Positions 9,036-26,209 of a stretch of 64,000 bases of DNA are shown here, in pieces (position 1 is the stretch's first letter; every line of letters begins with the position of its first letter). A program made the position numbers and the translations under genes. The DNA is from Fimicolochytrium jonesii (taxonomy: Eukaryota), in assembly GCF_025526975.1 (NCBI RefSeq), contig NW_026515688.1, positions 62,001 through 126,000 on the forward strand, in the 5' to 3' direction. The notes beneath the pieces were generated by a model. It was not told the DNA's origin. It searched no databases and was given only the letters and a program-made list of their open reading frames with translations.

Positions 9036-9399
9036 TTCGGTTTGGAGTTGTGCTTCCGAAGGGCAGTGTGAGGGTTGTGGTTGTCAGGACTCTGTCGAGT
9101 GGAGGTGAGACGTCGTGGCGCGGGGTGTTCTTCGCGTGAGACTTCTTTCCCTTGCGTCGACTCCGACCACTTTAATGCCGCAACATTAACCTCATTAACC
9201 CTCCCCTGTTCCCCACTCATACCATCTGCAGGCGGCTCGCTTCGTTTTGAATATTAACTTCCCTTGCAAGTACATACCCGCGGGGAGTCGTGGAAAGGAA
9301 CTTGCAACACTACGGTTTTCAGTGTGAAGTGGACATCCATTGGCGGCCGGGAGGAGGACGAACAATGCCGCACAGCGCTCGACCAATATCACTAGCAAC

Positions 9400-11365
9400 A
9401 TGACCACTAAACAGGCGTCGTTGGGCAGAGGGAAGGTGGTGGCGGAGAGGTCTCGTGCGCGGAAACGGCTAACAACGCATTTCATACACAATTACCGACG
9501 GCACCCTGCGACATGGACATTCACACTTCTCGTTCTCCTCACCCTCTTCGCCATGTTTCCCCCCGCCCGTGGGCAATACTCAAACTCTGACACCAAGGAC
9601 AGTGACACCGTCGCCATAACCGTCGCCGTACGAACCCAACGGGACCTCTCGCTCTCACTCCCCGCCAACCGCGCCTCAGGCGCCGGACTCGTCCTCGACC
9701 CGCTCGTGCTCAACGGGAATTACACCCTCACGGCGTTCGCGCAGACGCAGCGGCTGCTTTCGGGATTGTTTCGTCGTATTGTGTTGGATTTGTATTGGGA
9801 TAACCGTCGGAAGGCGTGGCAGACGTGTCCGGTGGCGTACTCCGACTCCGTGTGGGATGAGGCGATCAGATTGGGAGCGGATGCGGCGATGGCGAAGGAG
9901 ATGAGTATGGGGAATGAGACGGTGTGTTCGGCGGTACCATTGCAGGCAGGCACGGTGGTTTCTGCGTTTCCGACGTGGCTGGCGTCGCAGGAGAACGGGG
10001 GATCGCAGAATACCGTCCTGCAACTCATTCTGAATCTACATGATCTGGGAACCACGTACGACGCATCCATCACGCCCGGCTCGACACGGAACCTGTCCCA
10101 AACCATCTCGTCAAACAAAGTCTACACTCCCGTGATGCTCAAAGCCTTCCGCGACAGCAACGCGACCGACTCACCCTACCACACCATCCCGCCAAACACC
10201 GACCCAACCCTACCCATCGCCGCCCGCTGGCCGCTCGGCAAAGACCTCGTCGCAAGCGGCACCCAAGTCCTCATCGCGTTCGGAACCAACAACCTGAATG
10301 CCACCTCCGGCTACGACACCACCGCCGACGCCGACTTTATCTTCCCCGCGGCCGAAATGTCCGGCATACCCCCCCTCACCACCGCGGATATCTACCCTGG
10401 GTCCCAACTCACATCCTGCGCAAACCCCGGGCCGGGGATCGCGATGCTCGGCACCGGGTTCGATCTCGCCAACCCGAACTTCACCGCCTCCGCCGCTCAA
10501 CTCGCCACCTCAACACGCAACATCTCCTTCTCATGGCCGTACGTCGCGGAATCGACCGCGAAGCCTTTTGACCAGGCCACGGTAGAGAGAATATTACAGT
10601 GCGGGTTTTTCCCGCTGTTTAGTGTGGGCGTGCCGCAGCCGCTGGTGCAAGCTAGTACCTGGTCGTGGGAGGCGAATCAGCCGGCTCAATGGAGGGGTTA
10701 TGATTGTGCTGTGATGGAGCGGGATACCGGGAAGTGGTTCGTATCACATCATCCCATGCGTTGTCCACACTCTCCAAATAGCTAACCCACCCCTCTCTCG
10801 CTCCCGTTTACAGGACAGTAGACCGCTGCGACACCCACCACCCCGTCGCCTGCCACCTCACCACCCCCAACCACACCCTCTCCAACCCCTACACCTGGTA
10901 CATCCACCCCACCCCCCTCCCCTTCACCTCCGCCACCACCGCCTGCCCCGCCCCCTACACCTTCACACCCCCCGAAACCTCCCCTCAATCCCACGCCCTG
11001 CACACCCTCCTCCTCTCCACCCCCCACACCCACATCTGGATCTCCCTGCACCAGCCTTTACCGACATGCTGGGTGAACGGGTTGACGGGGAGTTGTCCGT
11101 ATACGGTGACGGACGATAGTTATCAGGCGTATGTGGGGGCGACGCTGAAGCAGGGGATTGTGATTGTGGTGCTTGGGGCGGTTTTTGTATTCTTTAGATG
11201 TAGGAGGCAGGTGAGGGTGGCGAGGGGCGCGAGGAGGAAGGCGGAGGTGGCGAGGATGGTTAGGGGCGTGGAGGTTGTTACTGTGCCGGTAAGGCTTTCT
11301 CTCGGTCATGGGGGAGGGGTGTGCGAGGGTAGCGTGGGCTGACCCTTATCTCGTTTTAGGCGTGA
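9400..11365 (+). CDS. MTC6: Mtc6-like membrane protein (PLC-like fold plus C-type-lectin-like module and C-terminal TM helix)
   Basis: Hydrophobic signal-like segment, AVRTQRDLS, RRIVLDLYWD..WQTCP, TWSWEANQP...CAVM...GKW, a lectin-like exon and TM GIVIVVLGAVFVFFRC. Two GT-AG introns near the 3' end. Confidence 0.75.
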
Positions 11366-12171
11366 GTGTGGGCCAACAGAACCCGGCGACGAGCCTTCCC
11401 AGTCACGGATCCGATGGCAAACTCATACCCGCGAACGTATGCGCGGAGTAGACATCCACTCGCCTCCAATTCCACCTGGCCTACGCCCCGTATATACACG
11501 GCTCCCACCCGCACCCGACACCGCAACACAACAACCCAGACACATCCACCACCTCCATCCGGGCCAATACCAACACAAGTTATTCCATCTAAATTATTAC
11601 ACACAACGCAGGACGGAGGGTACTCACGGCGCCGTTGGTGGTGTGGGAGTATGGAGGGTGCGTGTGTGCCGCATCTCCGGTCATTGGTCATGAACCTCTC
11701 TGCGTTGACGCGAATACCTGTTTGCTTCGTGTACAAATATCGTCCGCGACCGATCGAATTATACCCTCGCGCATTATCTGCCCACAGACAGTCTTCCGCG
11801 TCTGTGTCCTTTCATCGACGAATATTTTGGTCTGGAGGGCAAGATGCGTTTTCGGGGGCGATGATGGGTTTGGGGAAGCAAGAATGGGAGTTTGTATCGT
11901 TTCTTCGTTTTACGTATACATCGATGGGCTGTAGGTGACGGTTTCGTTTGATTGTGATCTGCGGGAATGTCCAGCCAGACGCACATGCATGGGTACATTG
12001 GGTAGATGCAGTGCGGCTCGTTTAGGTCCTTCTTTCGTACCGATTTTCGTGCCCGGACCGGTACTGTGGAAGAACACAAACAGTGCACCTTCCCGGCGTG
12101 CCTTTATGTGGTGGGCGCTAATATCAAGGGGAATCCGCGAACGCTCCTTCGGAATCATTATTTCACCAAAC

Positions 12172-12701
12172 ATGATATGTAAAAAGCGATGTCCCACATG
12201 CAACAAGGATATTGGTCGCCGTGCATTCGAACGACACTTTTCGGACTGTCGCACTTGGACGTGCGAATGGTGTCCATCCACGTACAACAACAAGGACTCG
12301 TACAACCATCACATCGTGAAATGCGACCAGAACCCTGCGTGGGTCCCCTTGATCTGCCGTTTTTGCCAGAAGGAAAACTTTGCCACCGCAAAGACCCTCT
12401 CGAACCATGAAGCAAAATGTACAATCTGTTGCCATAAAGCAGGTCGCCCACGAAATTAAGTGAGTGTCCGAGTGTCCTCGCCGCTGATCATTGCATCATA
12501 CGAGACCCCTAATCTGAACTGAATCTGTCACTGTCCTAGGCAACCACTGCTGGGGCCGACTGCGCACGGCCAGGTGCGACCTGCTTTATGGCAACAGAGG
12601 ACATGTCGAAACCGAAGCCCACATGTCGCCATTGCAACAGAGAGTTCAAGAGTGCAACCTGGAGAGACAAACATGAAGCCAAGTGCGACGAGGAGCAGTG
12701 A
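12172..12701 (+). pseudogene. Small tandem C2HC zinc-finger gene (4 fingers) interrupted by an inverted-repeat insertion
   Basis: CPTC..H...C, CEWC..H...C and CRFC..HEAKC precede 12425. A fourth finger, MSKPKPTCRHCNREFKSATWRDKHEAKCDEEQ*, follows 12598. An in-frame TAA lies inside the insert at 12457-12459. Confidence 0.6.
12425..12598. mobile_element. 174-bp MITE-like element with perfect 23-bp terminal inverted repeats
   Basis: TCTGTTGCCATAAAGCAGGTCGC (12425-12447) is the exact reverse complement of GCGACCTGCTTTATGGCAACAGA (12576-12598). No target-site duplication is evident. Confidence 0.6.
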
Positions 12702-13094
12702 TGCTTTGCAGTATAATGACAACAAAGAGTTATGAACGTAATCCATAGGGCGGGAATGGTGTTTGGTAAGACCGGGGGTGTTTGTGTTGTCTGCTGACTT
12801 TAGCCTCTACATCAGTAGGGTTACCCGCTATGAACTTACACCGGGAGGATCGGTTCCAATCGTTGGATATCAGCGCAGAACGCATGGCTACTGATCCCAA
12901 CAGAAAGCGCCATTGCACGCACCTCAACATACTCGTAAACCGCAGTTATGAAGTGCTTCAAGAACCCCGGAATCAAACTTCCCCGCCGATTTACAAACGC
13001 CTCGCCCGTTCTCCCCAATGCGACTGCACCAGCTGACAAGTCGACATCAGAGTCCCTCCATTTTATGTTTCTCCCTTTATTTGTGGTGCTCAAG

Positions 13095-13285
13095 GAGCTT
13101 CGGCGTCACCCAGAAGTAGTGCAATACTGGGGACACCAGTGTCAGGGCCATGAGCAAGCCCATGGTGGGCCCAACGAGTTTCAAAAATCTGATTGACAAA
13201 GATACTCGGCATGCGAGTAGGTTTAGTTGTCAAACTAAACAGAACAGATACTACACTTGATCTTAGCCAAAAGGCCAGAGAGGAT
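13095..13285 (-). ncRNA. U2: U2 spliceosomal snRNA
   Basis: Minus strand reads ATCCTCTCTGGCCTTTTGGCTAAGATCAAGTGTAGTATCTGTTCT (stem I and the GUAGUA branch-point recognition sequence), Sm site ATTTTTG (13182-13188) and stem-loop IV with loop TATTGCACTA. Length ~190 nt; 3' end approximate. Confidence 0.97.
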
Positions 13286-13325: not shown

Positions 13326-13332
13326 TTTTATA
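13326..13332 (-). promoter_or_regulatory. TATA box of the U2 gene
   Basis: TATAAAA on the minus strand about 47 nt upstream of the U2 5' end, followed by a pyrimidine-rich spacer ending in CTCCA. Confidence 0.7.
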
Positions 13333-13495
13333 GACGGCGGCCGGGATGGTGGAGATGTCGGGGAAGTCGGTGGAAGAAGCTCGCAGCGTGGCACAGCCAT
13401 GCTAAACACCCGCAATCCGTGTCACATTCGACGTGCTGCGCAGCTTCCGAGTCAGAGTCGGTTGAGTCAAATTTCCACGTTTTGTTTGCAGTGGA

Positions 13496-13532
13496 GGTTA
13501 GGGTTGAAGCAAAGCAATCGCATGGGGTTAGG
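13496..13532. promoter_or_regulatory. Two telo-box (TTAGGG) motifs in the U2 upstream/bidirectional region
   Basis: GGTTAGGGTT and GGGGTTAGGG. Telobox-binding Tbf1-type factors are known at yeast snoRNA promoters; function here is inferred. Confidence 0.4.
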
Positions 13533-13724
13533 GATATGGGCAAAAAAATTGCGCGCCGAAGGAAATGTTACAGGCACACTGTCCCGAACCCCGACTCAGC
13601 GAGCCTTCTCTGCTTGAGGTCCACATCAGAAAGAATAGCGGTTCCAAGAGGTCCGGTTTCAAAGCGACAACGAGATCCCAAGACCTTCCCGTTCGTCAAA
13701 TCTTCACAAAACGTCTACATTTTG

Positions 13725-13758
13725 AACCTACCGCTTACCTAAACCTACCGCTTACCTA
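13725..13758 (+). repeat. 17-bp tandem duplication AACCTACCGCTTACCTA x2
   Basis: Exact direct repeat at 13725-13741 and 13742-13758. Confidence 0.85.
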
Positions 13759-13858
13759 ACGCGCGTTTCGACAGGTGGCGCACGTGTGGCTTCAAAACAC
13801 CTTTCTCTTCTTCCGCCCAAGCCACTCGAGCCACCCCTGCGCCACTCACTCTCATCGG

Positions 13859-13866
13859 TATATAAG
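13859..13866 (+). promoter_or_regulatory. TATA box of the putative ncRNA divergent from U2
   Basis: TATATAAG followed by a pyrimidine-rich spacer ending TTTCTCCA at 13902, paralleling the U2 promoter. Confidence 0.55.
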
Positions 13867-13901
13867 CCCGCACGTCCATCCCCTCTTCCCACTTTTTCTC
13901 C

Positions 13902-14370
13902 ACCGGCCGTCGGGGTAAAACCCACGGCCACGCAATACAAATAATACACATATCACCCGATGAAGAAACCCGGCGTCTTGTCAAGGGGATCTCTTTGAGG
14001 CTGCGCGACAGATAGCGGAGGGTGGCAAAACCATTCGTGTGTTATTTGGCGTATTGCGTTCGTGGAGGCCTGAGAAAAAGCGGAGTCTCGGAATCGATAC
14101 GGGCAGTGTCGCTGCGATTGTTCCCACACTCCTTTTCCAGGCCTCGCGAGGACGGACAGTGGTACGGATATTAGAGACCCGCCCCTTCTGCGGTCCACGC
14201 CCAAGACATTACACGGTTGGCGTGCTTGACCTTCTGAGAGGCGGAAGAGGAGGAAACCAGGGCCCGGTGTCGGTGGTGTCGGAGCCAACGCCCGGGCTTG
14301 TGGCTTGTAAAGCAGTTCCCTGTGTTTATGAAGTACGTTGGGGACTCTAGAGAGTTGCAGACATTTTTGT
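13902..14370 (+). ncRNA. Putative unidentified structured ncRNA (snRNA-type unit with 3' Sm-like site)
   Basis: Successive stems at 13905-13929, 13930-13949/14037-14059, 14065-14072/14138-14145 and 14262-14267/14292-14297. ATTTTTG at 14363-14369. Downstream AAGGGAGAAA (14382-14391) is identical to the box downstream of U2 (13068-13077, minus). No convincing ORF. Confidence 0.55.
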
Positions 14371-14763
14371 TTTATGAATTGAAGGGAGAAAATTGGATGC
14401 GATGTGTGTTTCGCCTGATGTGGGAGTGGATCCGTGCTTGGTGTGCCTGGCATCCTCGGGCACGGCCGTTGGCTGTAAGCATCTTGGCCCGCTTCCCAGG
14501 TTTCCCTGTTTGGCATAGACAGATGTTTTCCAATGCGAAATGTGTTCCTGCAGGTCTTTTCGCTGGTATCTTTTCCACTTGGTCCCTATCGTAGCCAAAG
14601 GGCCTAATTGAGAAGCCCGCACAGAACGCACCGCATTTAATGACATAAAAGAAGTCTATTCGAAAGTATTCTAACGTTTATGTGTATGCGGGATCCAAAA
14701 CTATGAAGACCCAGTAACAGAAATGATATTCTACAGGCGGAAGCTATAAAGTTACATGGCCCA

Positions 14764-17700
14764 TCACTTCCTCCTCCCACCCTTCCCCTTCCCACCCTTC
14801 CCACCTCCGGCAGCTCCACCAGCAGCAGCCGCATCCGCCTGCGTAAGCACAACCTTCACCTTGCCCAGCAGCGCATTCATCATCTCCATCTCCGGAATCG
14901 CTCTGATCAGCTCCTTTTGTCGTTTCGCACTGTCGATTTCCTCGTTCGTTGTTTCTTCGGCTGCGGCGGTGGTGGGTAGCGTGGCCGGGGACGGATTTTC
15001 ATCCCCGTTCGTTCCGTTCACAGGCGGTACAGCCACCGGAGGTATCTTCCTCCCCGCGATTTTCCCTTCCGCAACCCTCCCCCTCCCCTCCGCAACACCC
15101 ACAAACGCACTAACAAGGCTCTTGACCGCCTTCCCCTTCTTCAAACCCCCAGGCATCAATTTCGCCTTATACGCGTATTTCTGCAATGCACTCCAAGGCG
15201 CACAGACGGGGATGGCGTGGAGGAGAATGTCGGAGGGGTGGGGTTGGCCGGTGAGGGTGTCGAGGAAGGTGGCGGTTTCGGAGATGTAGGAGATGTTTTC
15301 TTCGGCTAGGAGACGGGTAATTTCGAGAGAGTCGGCGGCGGTGCTTGTTGAGTTGCGGCGGGTAAGATCTGCGTGTGCTGCTGCGGTTTGTTGTTCCGTG
15401 GGTGTGGTGGACTCGGGTGTGGCGATGCCGTTTCTGGTTTGCGTGACGGTCCCGGACTGCTGCTTTTCCGTTACTGCAACCTGCTGTGGTTGCTGCGGCT
15501 GCTTCCCGCCCTTCACCTTCACAGCCTCCTGCTGTCGTCCACCCTTTCCCTTCTTCCCTTCCCCAACCGCCGCCGAAGTCGGCCGACCCTCTTCCGCAGC
15601 TTTAGTCCCCGCGGGCCCACGACTCCCCAACAACTCCAACATCATCTCGCGATCCTCCTCGTCCTGATCCGCGTATTTCGATTTCAGTTTCTTTATCTTG
15701 CCGCGTTTTCCGCGGACTTGTTGCTGTTGTGGCTGCTGTTGTTGTGCGGGTTGATCCGCTCCCTTGTTCCTGTTCTTGCCCTTGCCTTTAGCCAGTGCAT
15801 CGGCATCTTTCCCATTTGATCGCTGAGGAGCAGGTGTGACCTTATCGTCCCGCGAGTCAACAGACCCGTCATCCACACCACCACCAGCCTTCTGTTTCTT
15901 CAAATCACGCCGCTCTTTCGCCGTCAGCCGCTTCTTCGTCACGACAGGGCCGGCCGGGTTGGGACGGAGAATGTCAGCGATCCCGCCTTGTAAATCGTCG
16001 TCGTCGGAGTTGTCTTGGTTGAGCTCTGCGAGCCCGTATTTGTCGTCGGTTGAGACAATAACGGGAGTGTTGATGCTCGTGTCGGTGGGAAGGGGAGGTG
16101 TGCTGACGGATGGATCGGCAGCAATGTCGTCTGCATCTTCGTTGTCACTGGATTCGGAGCCGGACCCAGAGGCGCCCCCATTTGCCTCATCATCGCCGGC
16201 TTGATCCTCTCGGGCGGTAGCGGGCTCCGCCTCGGCATCGTCCTCGCCATCAGCCCCTTCGTTGTCTTGAGCTGCTGCGTCATCGTTGCCCTCAGCATCG
16301 TCGAGCTCAACGTCCTCCACGAGACTTTCATTAGACTCCATCTCCTTCTCCCCCCCAGCCTCAACGACACCCCCACCCGCCGCATCCCCTCTCCACGGCC
16401 TCCTTTCCCAATAATGCCGTCCCGCCGAACTGTCATCCACCCTAAACAGCAGCCCAAACCCATACACCAGCTGCACCGGCGGCAACCAATTCTTCTTGCC
16501 TCTAATCATAAAACTGCCCGTGGTCAGGTACTCCCCCGTCGGCGCCGTCTTGCTGACCTGGCCCGCCTCGACCCACCACGCGGACGTGACGATCTTCGTG
16601 TCCCATGCGCGCGACTGGCAGACGGACATTGTTCCTGCTTGGTGGAGGGTGGTGGGCGGGATCATGGCGGGCGCGTCCGGGTCCGTGACGTTTTTGACGA
16701 TGACGCTGGCGGCGCCGTGGAGGTCGGCGTGGACGTAGATGTCGCCTTTGCCGAGGTATCGTCTAACCAGCAGTTCGTTCTGGCCGGCGTCGCGGCCACC
16801 GACGACCAGGTAGTTCTCGGAGGAGATGAACCAGAGGAATTTTTCGAACCAGAAGGGTTTGCGCATCTTGGTGATAGCGGCCGGCGCGGCTTTCTGCGTG
16901 GTTTTGAGCTCCGTTTCGATCTTGCGTTCGGCGGATTTGAGAGCTTTGGAGGCGGCTTGCAGGGTCTTGTCCTGTTTAACGGCTGCGACTTTTTTGGTGT
17001 CGTAGTAGCGGCGAGCATTGGCATAGGCGGAGGCGTAGATGTCAATGTCAATGGAGAGGAAAGTTGGTTGGGGTTTCTTTTGCTTTGGCTGGTCGCGCTT
17101 CTTGCGATGAGATGAATTCATGTTCTCATCATCTTCACTACCGCTCTCGTCCTCTGACTCTGTCTCCGTCGCGTCATCCTCGTCGTCATCGCTATCTTCC
17201 TCCGTAGCGTCCCTCAGGCGTATATTCACCATCCCCACATCCAACTTCAACTTCGAAATGACGCTCGCTACTGGGTTCCCATTCTTCTTCTCCTCCTTGA
17301 CAAGTTCCTCCAAATCGCCCCAATCCATACCCGACGCAATGAAACTTCGGACAGTATTGATCAAACTCTCGATCAGCGCCAGATTGGCCTCAATCGTCTG
17401 AGCAACTTTTGCGCTCTGCTCCTGCATGGTCACCAACCCGCGGACCTGGTTCATGTGTCCGGCTTTGACGCTGTCGAGCTTCTTGATGGCGTTCAGTTCT
17501 GCTTGGCGAGCCCGCATTTCGAGTTTCTGGGCTTCGAGCTTGGAGAAGAACTCGTCGACGCATTTGTCGAAGCTGGGGTATTCAATCGCCGGTGGGTCTG
17601 CGTGTGGATCGGTTTCGGAACTGGTGGCGAATTGTTGGAAGAGGAAGGGGTGGAATTCGTTGTATGCCACGAATGAGGATTGTGTATTTTCGGCGGTCTC

Positions 17701-18865
17701 CGCGGCGCCGGCGGAGGGTTTGGCGGCAGTTTGCATCTGTTTCACTGTGATCCACCCCTTTTGTGGGGAATCCATGCAAGATTTTACGATTGCGTCGCCT
17801 TCTCGGAACGCTCTCAACAGTGCCTGAACTACGTGTGATGTTGAGGACAAGTCGAGTTCGGCCGTTACTTTCATAGATGCGTCCAATTCGGAGCGCAAGA
17901 TGCAATGCTCCACCAACGCCGGTCCATAATCGTGCCCCAGCTTGTCGCGAATGACTCTCCTCAGCGTCAGATCATTCGCCTTCTTGTCTTTCGCGCTCTT
18001 GAACCCTCCGCCGCCACCTCCGCCGGCAGTTTTCCCTTTTCCTCCCGCTTTTCCACCTTTCCCTCCTTTCCGTTTCTGTGCGTCTTCCGCTGACGCGCTG
18101 TTCGAATCTTCGGCTGTCTGCTTTTGCGAAGCACCAGCAGCTGCTTCCGTGACGGCGCTCTCCAGCACAGCTCTGATCTTTTCCTCCGTAATTACCTCAA
18201 ATTCTCTGATGCGGGTCGTATCGTAAATTTCTCCAACCGCAAACTTCGTATCGCCTTCCGTCTTTTCACCCGTAGCCGCATCCGCCGGACCACTAGCAGT
18301 CGCCGCTGCAGCCGTAATCGCAGCCGCAGCCCCATCGGCACCTCCCGCCGCCGCACCCTCAATCTCCACCACCCTCAACAGCGCCAAAATCCGATACTCC
18401 CAATCCGTCAAGATCACATTCCCCGACGCATAAAATTCGAGCAACAAATGGTACGCATGCTCGCCCTCGCCAAATCGCAGATCCATCACCCGGTCCGCAC
18501 CCAACTGGTCCAGACCCGTCAACCGCCGGGTGCGCAGGTGTTTGCGCAACTTCATGCAGAAATGCGAGGGGGTGGAGTTCTTGTCCCGTGCGAATTCGGT
18601 GGAATGCACCCGGATGCCCGATTCGACGAGCAGCATCTCTTTGTTGTCGGGGCGGGAGAACTTGAGGAGGTAGACCTTGTTGGTGACATCGTAGACTAGA
18701 AGACGAGGAGAGAGGTGATCTTGCTGTGTGAGTACGGGGACGACGGAACTCGGTCAGAGGGGTGGGTCAATGCAACGCACCGTTTTGCAGCCGTAAGCCG
18801 ACCAGCCTCGGCCGCAGTTCTGCGACCTGCGCCGAGACGTCGAGCGTTGAGAAGCGTTGTTTCAT
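14764..18865 (-). CDS. RQC2: Ribosome quality control subunit Rqc2/Tae2/NEMF
   Basis: MKQRFSTLDV...LVGLRLQN|VYDV..., KLRKHLRTRRL, LEFYASGNVILTD, WFEKFLWFISSENYLVVGGRDAGQNE, QVSKTAPTGEYLTTGSFMIRGKKN and AIPVCAPWSAL..Y.YKAKL.PG..KKGKA. One intron near the 5' end. Confidence 0.97.
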
Positions 18866-19483: not shown

Positions 19484-22400
19484 CTACGCATGCTGCAAAT
19501 CCCAACTTTTCATCCACTTCCTCCTCCTCAACTGCACCAAATCCGGGAACCCCGTCCCATACGTCAGGGGCGAAAAGTACGCGAACCCCCACGCCGCGAC
19601 GGCAACGAGGACGGCGAGGCCTGCGTAATATGTGAGGCCGCCTTGTGGTGTTGCGCGGCGGCGGCGCAGAGGAGCGGGGAGGGTGTGGGCGAGGTGACCG
19701 CGGGAGGGTTTGCGTTGTTGGAGGTGTGTGGAGGTGTCGGTGGCGATCGCGGCCGTGGCGGTGTTTGGCACGGGAACGGGTGGGCCCAAAGGCGCCGGCG
19801 ATTCCGCGACCCTCAAAAACACAAACTCGATGATACACGCAAAGACCATCGCCGAGAAGATGAAACTCGGCAGATAATGGTGCAAGAACAGCATTCGGCC
19901 CTGCAGGAAGAACGGGATCCAGTGCATTGCCCAGCACACGAAGAGGAACCCGGGAGCTTTATCCCACCAGTTCCTGATCCTCGGTCCGAAATCGTCGATC
20001 CCGCGGCGGAGAAGCAATCGGTCGATGAGCCACATGGCGGCGTACATGACCGTTCCCGTGATAGCGGGCCACCACACAAGCGGGTTGCCGAGGAGGTAGA
20101 TCTGCTTGAGACCTTCTTTGCGTTCCCAGAAGGAGATGCCGCGGAGTACAAAGGGCCATGTGATGGGCGTGGACGAGTACGGGTGCGGTTTAGTAAGGCC
20201 AGAGTTGTGCGCGATCATGAGACCTTGGAGCTCGAGGAATTTTTGGAGGAAGCTGAGCTTCTTCTTGGATTTGCTGGCTTTCGCGGCGGCTTCTTCTTTT
20301 TCTCTGGCGGCTTCAGCATCGTCTTCGCCCTTTTCGACGCCGTCGACGATGCGCTCGTGGTGCACCTCGTCAATCCACCATATATTGAACTTTTCCGCCT
20401 GGTTTTTGTTTCCATTCACCTCCTGTTGTCCGAAACCCCATTCGGGAAGGATCCCTTTATGGCAGTGCACGGCCACGTTGTGGTGGGCATTGATGAGCTT
20501 CAGATGGCTCCTTTTGCTGCGAACCTTGTCGCCCACCTCGCCATCCACAACATCCACGCGCCACAGCGTCTCGTTGTAGCGGCTTTCGGCGACATCGCCA
20601 ATCAGCGTGGTCATCTCCATATGCGTGGGTGTCAACGGCGATGCGACGTCGTGTGTGACGAGGAAGCTTCCCGTGCGTGCGTGTTGGAGGCGCAGAAAAT
20701 CGTTGTGGCGGACATAGCGAACGTTACGTGAGATCTCCTCTTCGGTAGGCTCGTACTTGGGTGCGGCGGGGTACTTTTCCACGTCGACGGGGACAAAGAT
20801 CCAGTGGTTGTTGGCGTCCCGGTGCGGGTACCCGGTCACCTGCTGTCCTTGCGTACTGACACGGTTGTCTTTGTAGCGCAGTGGGTATTTGTCGACGTGG
20901 GAGTGTAAGAATGCTTTTGTGTCGCGGTGTTTCAATGTGACGTTGGCAAAGTATGGAATAGCTATAATGCGAATAAGCCGAGTCAGCATCTTCGGCGCAC
21001 GAACATAGAACGAAATCCTGCTGTTTAAAACCCACCACTCGAGTTGACGCTCATCTCACTCCCAATAAGGCCATCCTGGAATCCAGGGCTCATGAAAGCA
21101 TCTCCAGGTCCGCTCTTGATGAGCAGCGCAAAATGGATGTAGAAGAATGACAGGTAGATTGCCAACGGGAAGAAAATCAAGCACAGCGCTCGGGCCGCGA
21201 AATGGCGGGAAAATTGGCGCTAAAAATCATATGATACCATCTATCAGGATTTGCCATTCTTTCCTGTGCGGGGAAGTCTCCGCAAATATATAGATATACT
21301 CACCATTGACAGACCCCGACGATAGTCGAGCAACTCCCAGAGATCAAACAGAACAGCGACTCCGACGGCAGCGATGGTCAACATTCCCACCATCTTCACT
21401 CTATTCAATAAGAGGTGCAACTTTGTCAGAACCATCTTCGGCAGGAAGGATACGAATCCCAATGGGACCCTCACCCTGTGGTGAACGCAAGTCCCGCTCC
21501 GGTCATGAGAAGCCATCCGTACCAGCGTAGACTGAAAGGCCTGCGTCGGAAAAGAAATATGAGCATCGAGTGCCAATTCTCAACTCTGCCACATATGTGA
21601 TCCGTACTCATGCTTGTGTTGTTGGAACTTGACCCAGGCGTAGATGGAGCACACGCAGAAGAGCGTCAGCATACTATCCAGTAGAATCAGCCGTGACTGC
21701 GTGATCAGGGAGTTGTCTGCGCGTATATCGATGTTAGCATTCACAACAACCAAGTAAATCTTCCCAACTCAGTAAAGCTCACCAAGAACAAGCAACAAAG
21801 CGCCAAAAGTAGCTCCCGCAACGCTCAATCCCAGCTCCTTCAGCGTCAAAAACACCACAGGCACAATCAAAGCCCCGCACGTGGCCGGGAGCAGCCTCAA
21901 CCCGACGTACGGCACATTATTGGCCACATAGTCATCGCCGATATTGTCAAACAAAAAGTGCCCGTCGTAGCCAAGGAACCAACCCGCGCCCGCGAGCAAC
22001 AGCTTCCCGAGCGGCGGATGCACGTCGAAGTAGTACTCCCGACGGAGGTAGTACGAGGCGAATTTGCCGAAATGGACTTCGTCAAAGCTATGAGAAGAGC
22101 GGGAATGAAAATCAGCCCTCGACGTTCCTATATCCCTTGGAAGAAGGAACTCCGCTTCACATCCCTCTAAGGAAGGTAACTTACACCACTTGCCCAGGAT
22201 ACCCAATCCCCCAACACCTCGTCACAAACGACAACAGCGTCACAACCACCAACGCCGCTTGGTACCACCCCTCGCTGTCCCTCCCGTTCCCTCTCGCCAC
22301 ACCCACGCCCACATTCCCTTTATGCGAAAGCGCATGCTGGATCGCTGCGGCGCGCGTAGGGGAATGCTCAGCGGACTTTGCTTTCGGTGGCGATGACGAG

Positions 22401-26194: not shown

Positions 26195-26209
26195 TTAGGG
26201 TTAGGGTTA
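26195..26209 (+). repeat. Short interstitial telomere-like repeat (TTAGGG)x2.5
   Basis: TTAGGGTTAGGGTTA just downstream of the CoA-transferase stop codon. Confidence 0.6.

What the first reader, a model, noticed from the sequence alone, without database searches (positions are those of the whole stretch)
13859..14391. Unidentified ~470-nt structured, Sm-site-bearing RNA gene head-to-head with U2
Seen in the sequence: a TATA box (13859) and pyrimidine spacer ending CTCCA, spaced like the U2 promoter on the opposite strand (43 vs 47 nt). A run of stems follows: a GGCCGT/ACGGCC hairpin, a long ACGCAATAC-AAATAATACAC/GTGTGTTATTT-GTATTGCGT arm enclosing sub-hairpins, a GAGGCCTG/CAGGCCTC arm, and a possible three-way junction closed by CAGGG/CCCTG containing GCCCGG/CCGGGC and a small GCTT/AAGC hairpin. 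Then come ATTTTTG, identical to U2's Sm heptamer, and AAGGGAGAAA, identical to the box downstream of U2. By eye it lacks the hallmark motifs of U1, U3, U4, U5, U11, U12, SRP and RNase P/MRP. Inference: a novel Sm-class snRNA-type RNA. A 3'-terminal Sm site plus three-way junction recalls yeast telomerase RNAs, but no CTAACCC template is visible, so that identity is unsupported unless the telomere repeat differs from TTAGGG.
Basis: partly seen in the sequence, partly recalled or inferred. Interest (0 to 1): 0.9.

Follow-up and report, generated by a model that had tools for sequence, protein, structure and literature searches.

The report
Chytrid snR43-type H/ACA snoRNA beside U2
The mystery RNA gene next to U2 in this chytrid fungus is most likely an ordinary pseudouridylation-guide snoRNA, the predicted counterpart of yeast snR43, made with a long folded leader that is probably cut off, and not a new Sm-class or telomerase RNA.

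Summary
The promoter, the stems and the U2-like 3' box are in the sequence, but the Sm-RNA/telomerase reading is not supported. Bases 14179-14366 fit a box H/ACA snoRNA: hairpin, H box AGAGGA (14246), internal hairpin, 3' hairpin, then ACA plus UUU (14361-14366). The 'Sm' heptamer overlaps this tail. I fixed the first pocket (14 nt before the H box) from the fold, then searched 1244 uridines of fungal rRNA and U2. Its two best targets are the equivalents of yeast 25S U966 (11 bp) and 5.8S U73 (9 bp), the two sites that published tables assign to snR43. No pocket shuffle reached both scores (0 of 200,000), and only this one of 368,580 box geometries in the window did. Neurospora Nc ACA9 shows the same pocket and layout by eye. 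The 5' 270 nt are strongly folded and showed no convincing guide or TTAGGG-type template. They are likely a removable leader, as yeast snR43 is Rnt1-processed; that step is untested. The three-way junction has pairing probability under 0.02. The host is Fimicolochytrium jonesii or a very close relative. No homologue, expression data or host rRNA was available. Verdict: new member of a known family, low interest.

The parts
13068..13077 (-). 3' box AAGGGAGAAA of the U2 gene, 16 nt after the Rfam 3' end
13094..13285 (-). U2 snRNA gene (divergent neighbour)
   Evidence: Rfam RF00004, 154 bits
13326..13332 (-). TATA box of U2
13496..13533 (.). Two GGTTAGGG motifs in the shared spacer; the first reads AACCCTAA on the minus strand, matching the yeast snoRNA-promoter motif aRCCCTaa; possible telomere-protein (Tbf1-like) sites (inferred)
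   Evidence: motif from PMC4660826 passage
13725..13759 (.). Perfect 17-nt tandem repeat (2.1 copies) in the spacer; role unknown
13859..13865 (+). TATA box of the candidate gene
13866..13902 (+). Pyrimidine-rich spacer ending CTCCA; inferred start site at 13902 +/- 1
   Evidence: likeness to the U2 promoter; inference
13905..13929 (+). 5' leader: first short hairpin
   Evidence: pair probability 0.97-1.00
13930..14059 (+). 5' leader arm A: about 21 bp near-continuous stem closing a multiloop
   Evidence: probability 0.80-0.95; z -3.6
14060..14149 (+). 5' leader arm B: long irregular hairpin, candidate RNase III-type substrate (inferred)
   Evidence: probability 0.68-0.98 for the main helices; z -4.0
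14179..14244 (+). H/ACA hairpin 1: lower stem CCGCC/GGCGG, pocket, upper stem 14192-14231
14184..14191 (+). Pocket 1, 5' guide strand CCTTCTGC
   Evidence: pairs 3' of LSU U966-equivalent and 5.8S U73
14232..14239 (+). Pocket 1, 3' guide strand TTCTGAGA, starting 14 nt before the H box
   Evidence: pairs 5' of both targets
14246..14251 (+). H box AGAGGA (ANANNA)
14260..14298 (+).
   Evidence: probability 0.6-0.95
14299..14359 (+). H/ACA 3' hairpin with a pocket 14 nt before ACA; no known target found
14361..14366 (+).
   Evidence: unpaired probability 0.82-0.99; box offset
14382..14391 (+). 3' box AAGGGAGAAA, identical to U2's, 15 nt after 14366

Best explanation
This is likely a separately transcribed gene for a box H/ACA snoRNA, predicted to be the chytrid counterpart of yeast snR43, whose first pocket would guide pseudouridylation of both large-subunit U966 and 5.8S U73 (yeast numbering), with a folded 270-nt 5' leader that is probably removed. 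Shown in the sequence or by calculation: promoter, stems, H and ACA boxes at canonical 14-nt spacing, complementarity to both sites. Inferred: RNA polymerase II starts near 13902, about 570 nt from U2's start and in the opposite direction; the shared box sets the 3' end and trimming stops at ACA+3 (14366); Cbf5, Nhp2, Nop10 and Gar1 bind the hairpins; an RNase III-type enzyme cuts a leader stem and 5'-3' exonucleases trim to about 14172-14179, giving about 190 nt. Odds: snR43-type H/ACA domain about 0.92; leader removed, given that, about 0.6.
For: (1) The fold gives a pocket 14 nt before AGAGGA and a 3' hairpin ending just before ACA; this geometry was written down before any target search. 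The published rule is 14-16 nt and 9-13 bp, with ACA 3 nt from the end (PMC2780460 passage). (2) Of 1244 U sites in one fungal 18S, 5.8S, two LSU pieces and the window's U2, the top two are LSU CTCAGGA[U]A-GCAG (7+4 bp, score 27) and 5.8S GAA[U]U-GCAGAA (3+6 bp, score 22); the next scores 15. (3) The 5.8S site is position 73 counted from the 5.8S start in 8 of 10 loci (2 lacked the start motif); anchoring the LSU site as 966 reproduces 10 of 12 tabulated modified bases in L051 and L054. (4) Two reviews list snR43 for exactly 25S-966 and 5.8S-73 (PMC8307265 Table 1; PMC5699541); 966 is also modified in human and Arabidopsis. (5) Controls: both scores reached in 0 of 200,000 pocket shuffles; 1 of 368,580 H-box geometries in the window, this one; best-site score of 27 or more in 2 of 300 shuffles. 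(6) Neurospora Nc ACA9 (201 nt) has, by eye, AUCUGC and UUCCUGG around its first upper stem, H box AGAUUA, an internal hairpin, then UGUGGC as here. (7) Fungal H/ACA median length is 188 nt. (8) Yeast snR43 is one of the Rnt1-dependent H/ACA RNAs made with a 5' extension (PMC5934358). (9) The 3' box lies 15 nt after 14366 and 16 nt after U2's end.
Against: The host's own rRNA was not available; targets come from other eukaryotes' rDNA, and a stretch of LSU between L051 and L067 was not searched. In L006 and L007 the LSU site does not score because the bases after it differ. The free fold partly closes pocket 1 and pairs four H-box bases (unpaired probability 0.10-0.27); opening boxes and pocket costs 4.5 kcal/mol, and the domain is no more stable than shuffles (z -0.5). 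A score of 27 alone is not exceptional: three other box geometries score 28-29 at sites that were not checked against modification tables, and a pocket shifted by one base scores 31-32 on a spacer upstream of 18S in two loci. The 5.8S pairing has only 3 bp on one side. Pocket 2 has only a weak 8-9 bp hit, at the yeast 935 position, which none of the tables read lists. Rfam gave no snoRNA hit. For the leader: no AGNN tetraloop caps arm A or B in the predicted fold, 270 nt is longer than the snoRNA itself, and no RNase III gene of this organism was looked up.
Confidence: 0.85

Rival explanations
1. The leader is kept: the mature RNA is about 465 nt, a capped H/ACA snoRNA with a large 5' structured domain that has a role of its own, such as rRNA chaperoning or protein binding.
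For: The 5' part is more stably folded than the guide domain (z -3.8 against -0.5). Most yeast H/ACA RNAs (21 of 27) keep their cap. Long H/ACA RNAs exist (snR30, 606 nt). No AGNN loop caps the arms in the predicted fold.
Against: The 190-nt domain matches the family size (Nc ACA9 201 nt; fungal median 188 nt). Yeast snR43 loses its extension. Long stems are what an RNase III substrate would have. No convincing guide was found in the 5' part.
Confidence: 0.17
2. The transcript is a two-part or host precursor: the 5' part is a second small RNA or a non-coding exon, and the snoRNA is released by splicing or cleavage.
For: A donor-like G/GTACGG lies at 14162 just before the snoRNA and a CTGAT at 14416. 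Nc ACA9 is intronic. Co-hosted snoRNA pairs cut by Pac1 are known in fission yeast (PMC12508059 abstract).
Against: By reading, the first YAG after the CTGAT is about 80 nt away. The U2-type 3' box directly after ACA points to a transcript end. The 5' part has no H box after arm A, no good C box, and no Rfam hit.
Confidence: 0.12
3. One reading: a novel Sm-class RNA or a telomerase RNA with a 3' Sm site and a three-way junction.
For: ATTTTTG identical to U2's Sm site, U2-like promoter and 3' box, length near 470 nt. No chytrid telomerase RNA turned up in four paper searches, and this organism's telomere repeat is unknown to me.
Against: Junction helices have probability under 0.02. No plus-strand stretch longer than one repeat for TTAGGG inside or upstream of the gene, and none inside the gene for seven other repeat types. 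It cannot explain the double snR43 target match. The heptamer overlaps ACA-UUU.
Confidence: 0.04
4. Not a gene: chance structure in the gap between U2 and the 3' end of Rqc2.
For: No expression data and no homologue were obtained; 62-167 aa stop-free frames overlap but none was tested as a gene.
Against: Promoter, 3' box, folding and double target match are each rare in the window.
Confidence: 0.03

Closest known systems
snR43 of Saccharomyces cerevisiae (box H/ACA)
   Same: Same two predicted targets, 25S-966 and 5.8S-73; own transcription unit with a 5' extension. Recalled, not seen: Decatur and Schnare 2008 report that one guide element serves both sites and that an internal stem-loop is conserved.
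   Different: No Rfam hit; sits head-to-head with U2 and shares its 3' box; no AGNN loop on the leader arms in the predicted fold; leader processing untested.
Neurospora crassa Nc ACA9 (EU780988) and fission yeast AJ632018, family HACA_9
   Same: By eye: same pocket strands, H box, internal hairpin, UGUGGC at the start of the 3' hairpin, about 200 nt. AJ632018 is matched to snR43 in PMC5824354.
   Different: Nc ACA9 is intronic and was published as an orphan. No alignment was computed.
Arabidopsis snoR151 and the human guide for 28S U1670 (SNORA9, name recalled)
   Same: Same conserved LSU pseudouridine.
   Different: Not known to guide the 5.8S site; PMC8351944 says snR43 could not be identified in Arabidopsis.
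Telomerase RNA (vertebrate H/ACA type, yeast Sm type)
   Same: Length near 460 nt and a structured 5' part in front of an H/ACA or U-rich 3' end (recalled architecture).
   Different: No template, junction not favoured, and the H/ACA domain has an rRNA guide pocket.

Membership tests
Box H/ACA snoRNA | Hairpin-hinge-hairpin-tail fold | tested here: met
   one extra hairpin in the hinge; domain not more stable than shuffles
Box H/ACA snoRNA | H box ANANNA in the hinge | tested here: met
   AGAGGA at 14246; partly paired in the free fold, 1.4 kcal/mol to open both boxes
Box H/ACA snoRNA | ACA directly after the last hairpin | tested here: met
   14361-14363, unpaired 0.82-0.99
Box H/ACA snoRNA | Mature 3' end 3 nt after ACA | tested here: inconclusive
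   3' box offset 15 nt against 16 for U2 fits; no RNA data
Box H/ACA snoRNA | Pocket 14-16 nt from a box, 9-13 bp around a target U | tested here: met
   pocket 1: 14 nt, 11 bp and 9 bp; pocket 2: 14 nt, only 8-9 bp
Box H/ACA snoRNA | Binds Cbf5, Nhp2, Nop10, Gar1; nucleolar | not testable with these tools
   needs co-precipitation and imaging
snR43 / HACA_9 family | Guides LSU U966 | tested here: met
   top hit in 5 of the 7 loci that hold the site (L028, L032, L049, L051, L054; not L006, L007); host rRNA not held
snR43 / HACA_9 family | Guides 5.8S U73 | tested here: met
   first or second hit in 11 of 12 loci
snR43 / HACA_9 family | Internal stem-loop after the H box (feature recalled; seen by eye in Nc ACA9) | tested here: met
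   14260-14298
snR43 / HACA_9 family | Sequence homology by covariance model or alignment | tested here: inconclusive
   no Rfam hit; whether Rfam holds an snR43 model was not checked; only a by-eye comparison with Nc ACA9
snR43 / HACA_9 family | 5' extension cut by RNase III (yeast) | tested here: inconclusive
   long stems present; no AGNN-capped arm; cleavage untested
Telomerase RNA | Template of about 1.5 telomere repeats | tested here: not met
   for eight repeat types; the host's repeat is unknown
Telomerase RNA | CR4/5 three-way junction with P6.1 | tested here: not met
   probability under 0.02; single-sequence folding only
Telomerase RNA | Pseudoknot with triple helix | not tested
   no pseudoknot prediction was run
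Sm-class snRNA | Single-stranded Sm site inside the mature RNA | tested here: inconclusive
   heptamer present, but it overlaps ACA and an end at 14366 would cut it
Sm-class snRNA | Match to a known U snRNA, U3, SRP, RNase P or MRP family | tested here: not met
snR30/U17 | m1 and m2 motifs in the 3' hairpin before ACA (motifs recalled) | tested here: not met
   an m2-like AAACCAT lies at 14029 in arm A, far from ACA; none in 14299-14359

The most novel reading that the evidence does not exclude
The 270-nt 5' domain stays on the mature RNA, giving a 465-nt chimera in which an snR43 rRNA guide carries a separate functional module, made from an snRNA-type gene that shares promoter region and 3' box with U2. 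At the far end (about 0.02) this would be a telomerase-like RNA with an unusual template joined to a working H/ACA guide, bearing on how vertebrate telomerase RNA gained its H/ACA end.
Probability: 0.1. Interest if true: 0.65.

Novelty: new member of a known kind. Interest (0 to 1): 0.2.

Why it matters
It is mostly an annotation gain: a snoRNA that Rfam misses. If right, the double-target snR43 guide (LSU 966 plus 5.8S 73), its internal hairpin and perhaps its 5' leader reach back to chytrids. Ten paper searches showed no chytrid snR43, but none was aimed at that alone, and the supplement of the fungal snoRNA survey PMC5824354, which maps family ranges, could not be read, so chytrid members may be listed there. 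The 10-nt box shared with U2 suggests a common 3'-end signal for small RNA genes in this fungus and could help find others. It also warns that fungal ACA-UUU ends can mimic an Sm site.

Tried and rejected
Rfam at gathering and at E up to 10: only U2. No whole genome was held. No sequencing run was listed; this is no evidence on expression. Earlier findings by place, sequence and first words: nothing. Metagenome scan for this U2's 5' variant: 0 hits. Second scan, TATA plus U2: 50 loci; none had a pocket scoring for both targets, and blastn of 13331-14700 against them gave one 41-nt match at E 3e-4, outside the candidate RNA. None of the 50 is known to be a chytrid, so synteny is untested, not refuted. 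L110 has a similar U2 5' end and one LSU-only pocket hit upstream; rejected as likely chance because it has no 5.8S match and does not fold as a pocket hairpin. Telomerase template and junction rejected. A longer RNA starting upstream to include the 17-nt repeat was considered (13700-14400 fold): it would bury the TATA box inside the transcript; not supported. snR30, U3, RNase P/MRP and SRP were considered by eye and by Rfam and dropped. Hinge GGAAACCAG complementary to LSU between the two pocket targets and three 11-nt complementarities are at chance level. A second H/ACA or C/D guide in the leader was not found. Decatur and Schnare 2008 and a second yeast H/ACA paper were not held.

Full report
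Setting. The window encodes an Rqc2/NEMF protein that is 97% identical over residues 1-500 to a Fimicolochytrium jonesii protein, with other Spizellomycetales at 53-66%. The host is that chytrid or a very close relative. U2 lies at 13285-13094 on the minus strand. The candidate lies between U2 and the 3' end of Rqc2 (stop near 14764).

Checking the observation. The TATA box, the pyrimidine spacer and CTCCA are as described. Of 27 TATA-type sites in the window, only this one and U2's have such a spacer. The three 5' stems have pair probabilities of 0.80-1.00, and 13903-14171 folds better than 100 of 100 shuffles; its limits were chosen after seeing the fold. AAGGGAGAAA follows both genes, a match seen in 20 of 42,638 sampled windows, the two genes included. 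Rfam finds nothing in the candidate. The three-way junction is not favoured: its closing helix has probability 0.001-0.002 and the small hairpin 0.004-0.016.

What the fold shows instead. The preferred 3' structure is a hairpin at 14299-14359 with an internal loop, ending just before ACA (14361-14363) and TTT. Upstream is a hairpin at 14179-14244, then AGAGGA, which fits the H box ANANNA, then an extra hairpin at 14260-14298. In both main hairpins the upper stem ends 14 nt before the box. The published rule is 14-16 nt, 9-13 bp, ACA 3 nt from the end (PMC2780460, passages). I noted this geometry before searching for targets. U2's 3' box starts 16 nt after its end; here it starts 15 nt after ACA+3 and 12 nt after the end of the heptamer. 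That favours, but does not prove, an end at 14366 inside the 'Sm' heptamer.

Target search. Eukaryotic rDNA was taken from contaminant contigs in a bacterial genome collection (L051 verified as 18S, 5.8S and LSU 1-2215; a 3' LSU piece L067). At the predicted geometry, pocket 1 (CCTTCTGC / TTCTGAGA) gave as best hits an LSU uridine and a 5.8S uridine (16 geometries per pocket tried). Among 1244 U sites they score 27 and 22, the next 15. The 5.8S site is position 73 in 8 of 10 loci, the other two lacking the start motif. Setting the LSU site to 966 reproduces 10 of 12 tabulated modified bases in L051 and L054. PMC8307265 (passages and Table 1) and PMC5699541 (passages) list snR43 as the guide for exactly these two sites. 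The 966 site is also modified in human and Arabidopsis (PMC8351944, Supplementary Table 2).

Controls. Shuffled pocket strands reached the LSU score in 6, the 5.8S score in 44, and both in 0 of 200,000 trials. Of 368,580 H-box geometries on both strands of the window, only this one passed looser cut-offs at both sites. A best score of 27 at any site arose in 2 of 300 shuffles. The sites were chosen after the hit, and any pair of targets of one known guide would have counted, so the true odds are somewhat weaker. Against: with free geometry three other boxes score 28-29 at single sites; a one-base shift scores 31-32 on a spacer in two loci; L006 and L007 do not give the LSU hit; the free fold partly closes the pocket and pairs the H box. 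It is the double match that carries the case.

Family comparison. Earlier scan notes pointed to Neurospora Nc ACA9 as the snR43 counterpart. I read its sequence in the supplement of PMC2780460 (passage). By eye it has AUCUGC and UUCCUGG around the first upper stem, H box AGAUUA, an internal hairpin and then UGUGGC, as here; no alignment was computed. Four other entries in that passage end in ACAUUU. The paper lists Nc ACA9 as a 201-nt intronic orphan. PMC5824354 (passages; supplements not readable) matches fission yeast AJ632018 to snR43 and gives a fungal median of 188 nt; the domain here is about 190 nt. From recall only, Decatur and Schnare 2008 (not held) report a shared guide element for both sites and a conserved internal stem-loop.

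Pocket 2. Its best hit is 8-9 bp at the uridine 31 nt upstream of the first target, the yeast 935 position. None of the tables read lists it. It may be inactive, help anchor the same rRNA segment, or target a part not held.

The 5' 270 nt. No convincing H/ACA or C/D guide was found, and no template for eight telomere repeat types. Yeast snR43 is among six H/ACA RNAs made with a 5' extension removed by Rnt1 (PMC5934358, passages and one Results section). Long stems ahead of the guide fit that pattern, so I read them as a leader. This is inferred: no AGNN loop caps the arms in the predicted fold, and 21 yeast H/ACA RNAs keep their cap. A retained domain or a spliced host remain open; a donor-like site lies at 14162 (PMC12508059, abstract only).

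Shared spacer. Two GGTTAGGG motifs lie between the TATA boxes; one matches aRCCCTaa, 1 of 4 such matches in the window. That motif marks yeast snoRNA promoters (PMC4660826, passage). A factor of that kind acting here is inference.

Homologues. Two metagenome scans gave no relative. Covariation and synteny with U2 are untested.

Verdict. It works like, and on the features tested belongs to, the box H/ACA guides of the snR43 family. New member of a known kind, interest 0.2. The open point is the fate of the leader.

Noticed in passing
L001:986-1025: A 1767-nt viral contig that looks circovirus-like by eye (rep-like and cap-like frames, TAGTATTAC near the end) carries about 38 nt matching the 5' end of U2 snRNA, on the minus strand between the two genes' ends. 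Capture, chimera or assembly artefact is undecided.
   Followed up: no
window 13725-13759: Perfect 17-nt tandem repeat, 2.1 copies, 100 nt upstream of the TATA box; it contains ACCTAA and CTTACCT. Role unknown.
   Followed up: partly
window 13496-13533 and 26195-26208: GGTTAGGG twice in the U2 spacer, and a tandem TTAGGGTTAGGGTT at 26195; the second site may mark another small-RNA or ribosome-biogenesis promoter.
   Followed up: no
window 13958-13967: CGATGAAGAA in the leader is identical in sense to 10 nt of 5.8S rRNA; probably chance.
   Followed up: no
L002-L060: At least 59 stretches of contigs in the bacterial and archaeal genome collection match a eukaryotic 5.8S primer; L051 is verified eukaryotic rDNA. 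Many look like contamination.
   Followed up: partly
L110:821-1013: A metagenome U2 with a 5' end like this one (AUUCCUCUCAGGCC) but without the AAGGGAGAAA box downstream.
   Followed up: partly
window 11935-12456: 174-aa frame rich in Cys and His pairs, zinc-finger-like by eye, no Pfam hit.
   Followed up: no
window 9328-11339; 18747-18865; 19487-21055: Neighbours: MTC6-like gene, an Rqc2 gene whose first 28 residues map to a separate upstream exon, and a protein O-mannosyltransferase.
   Followed up: no
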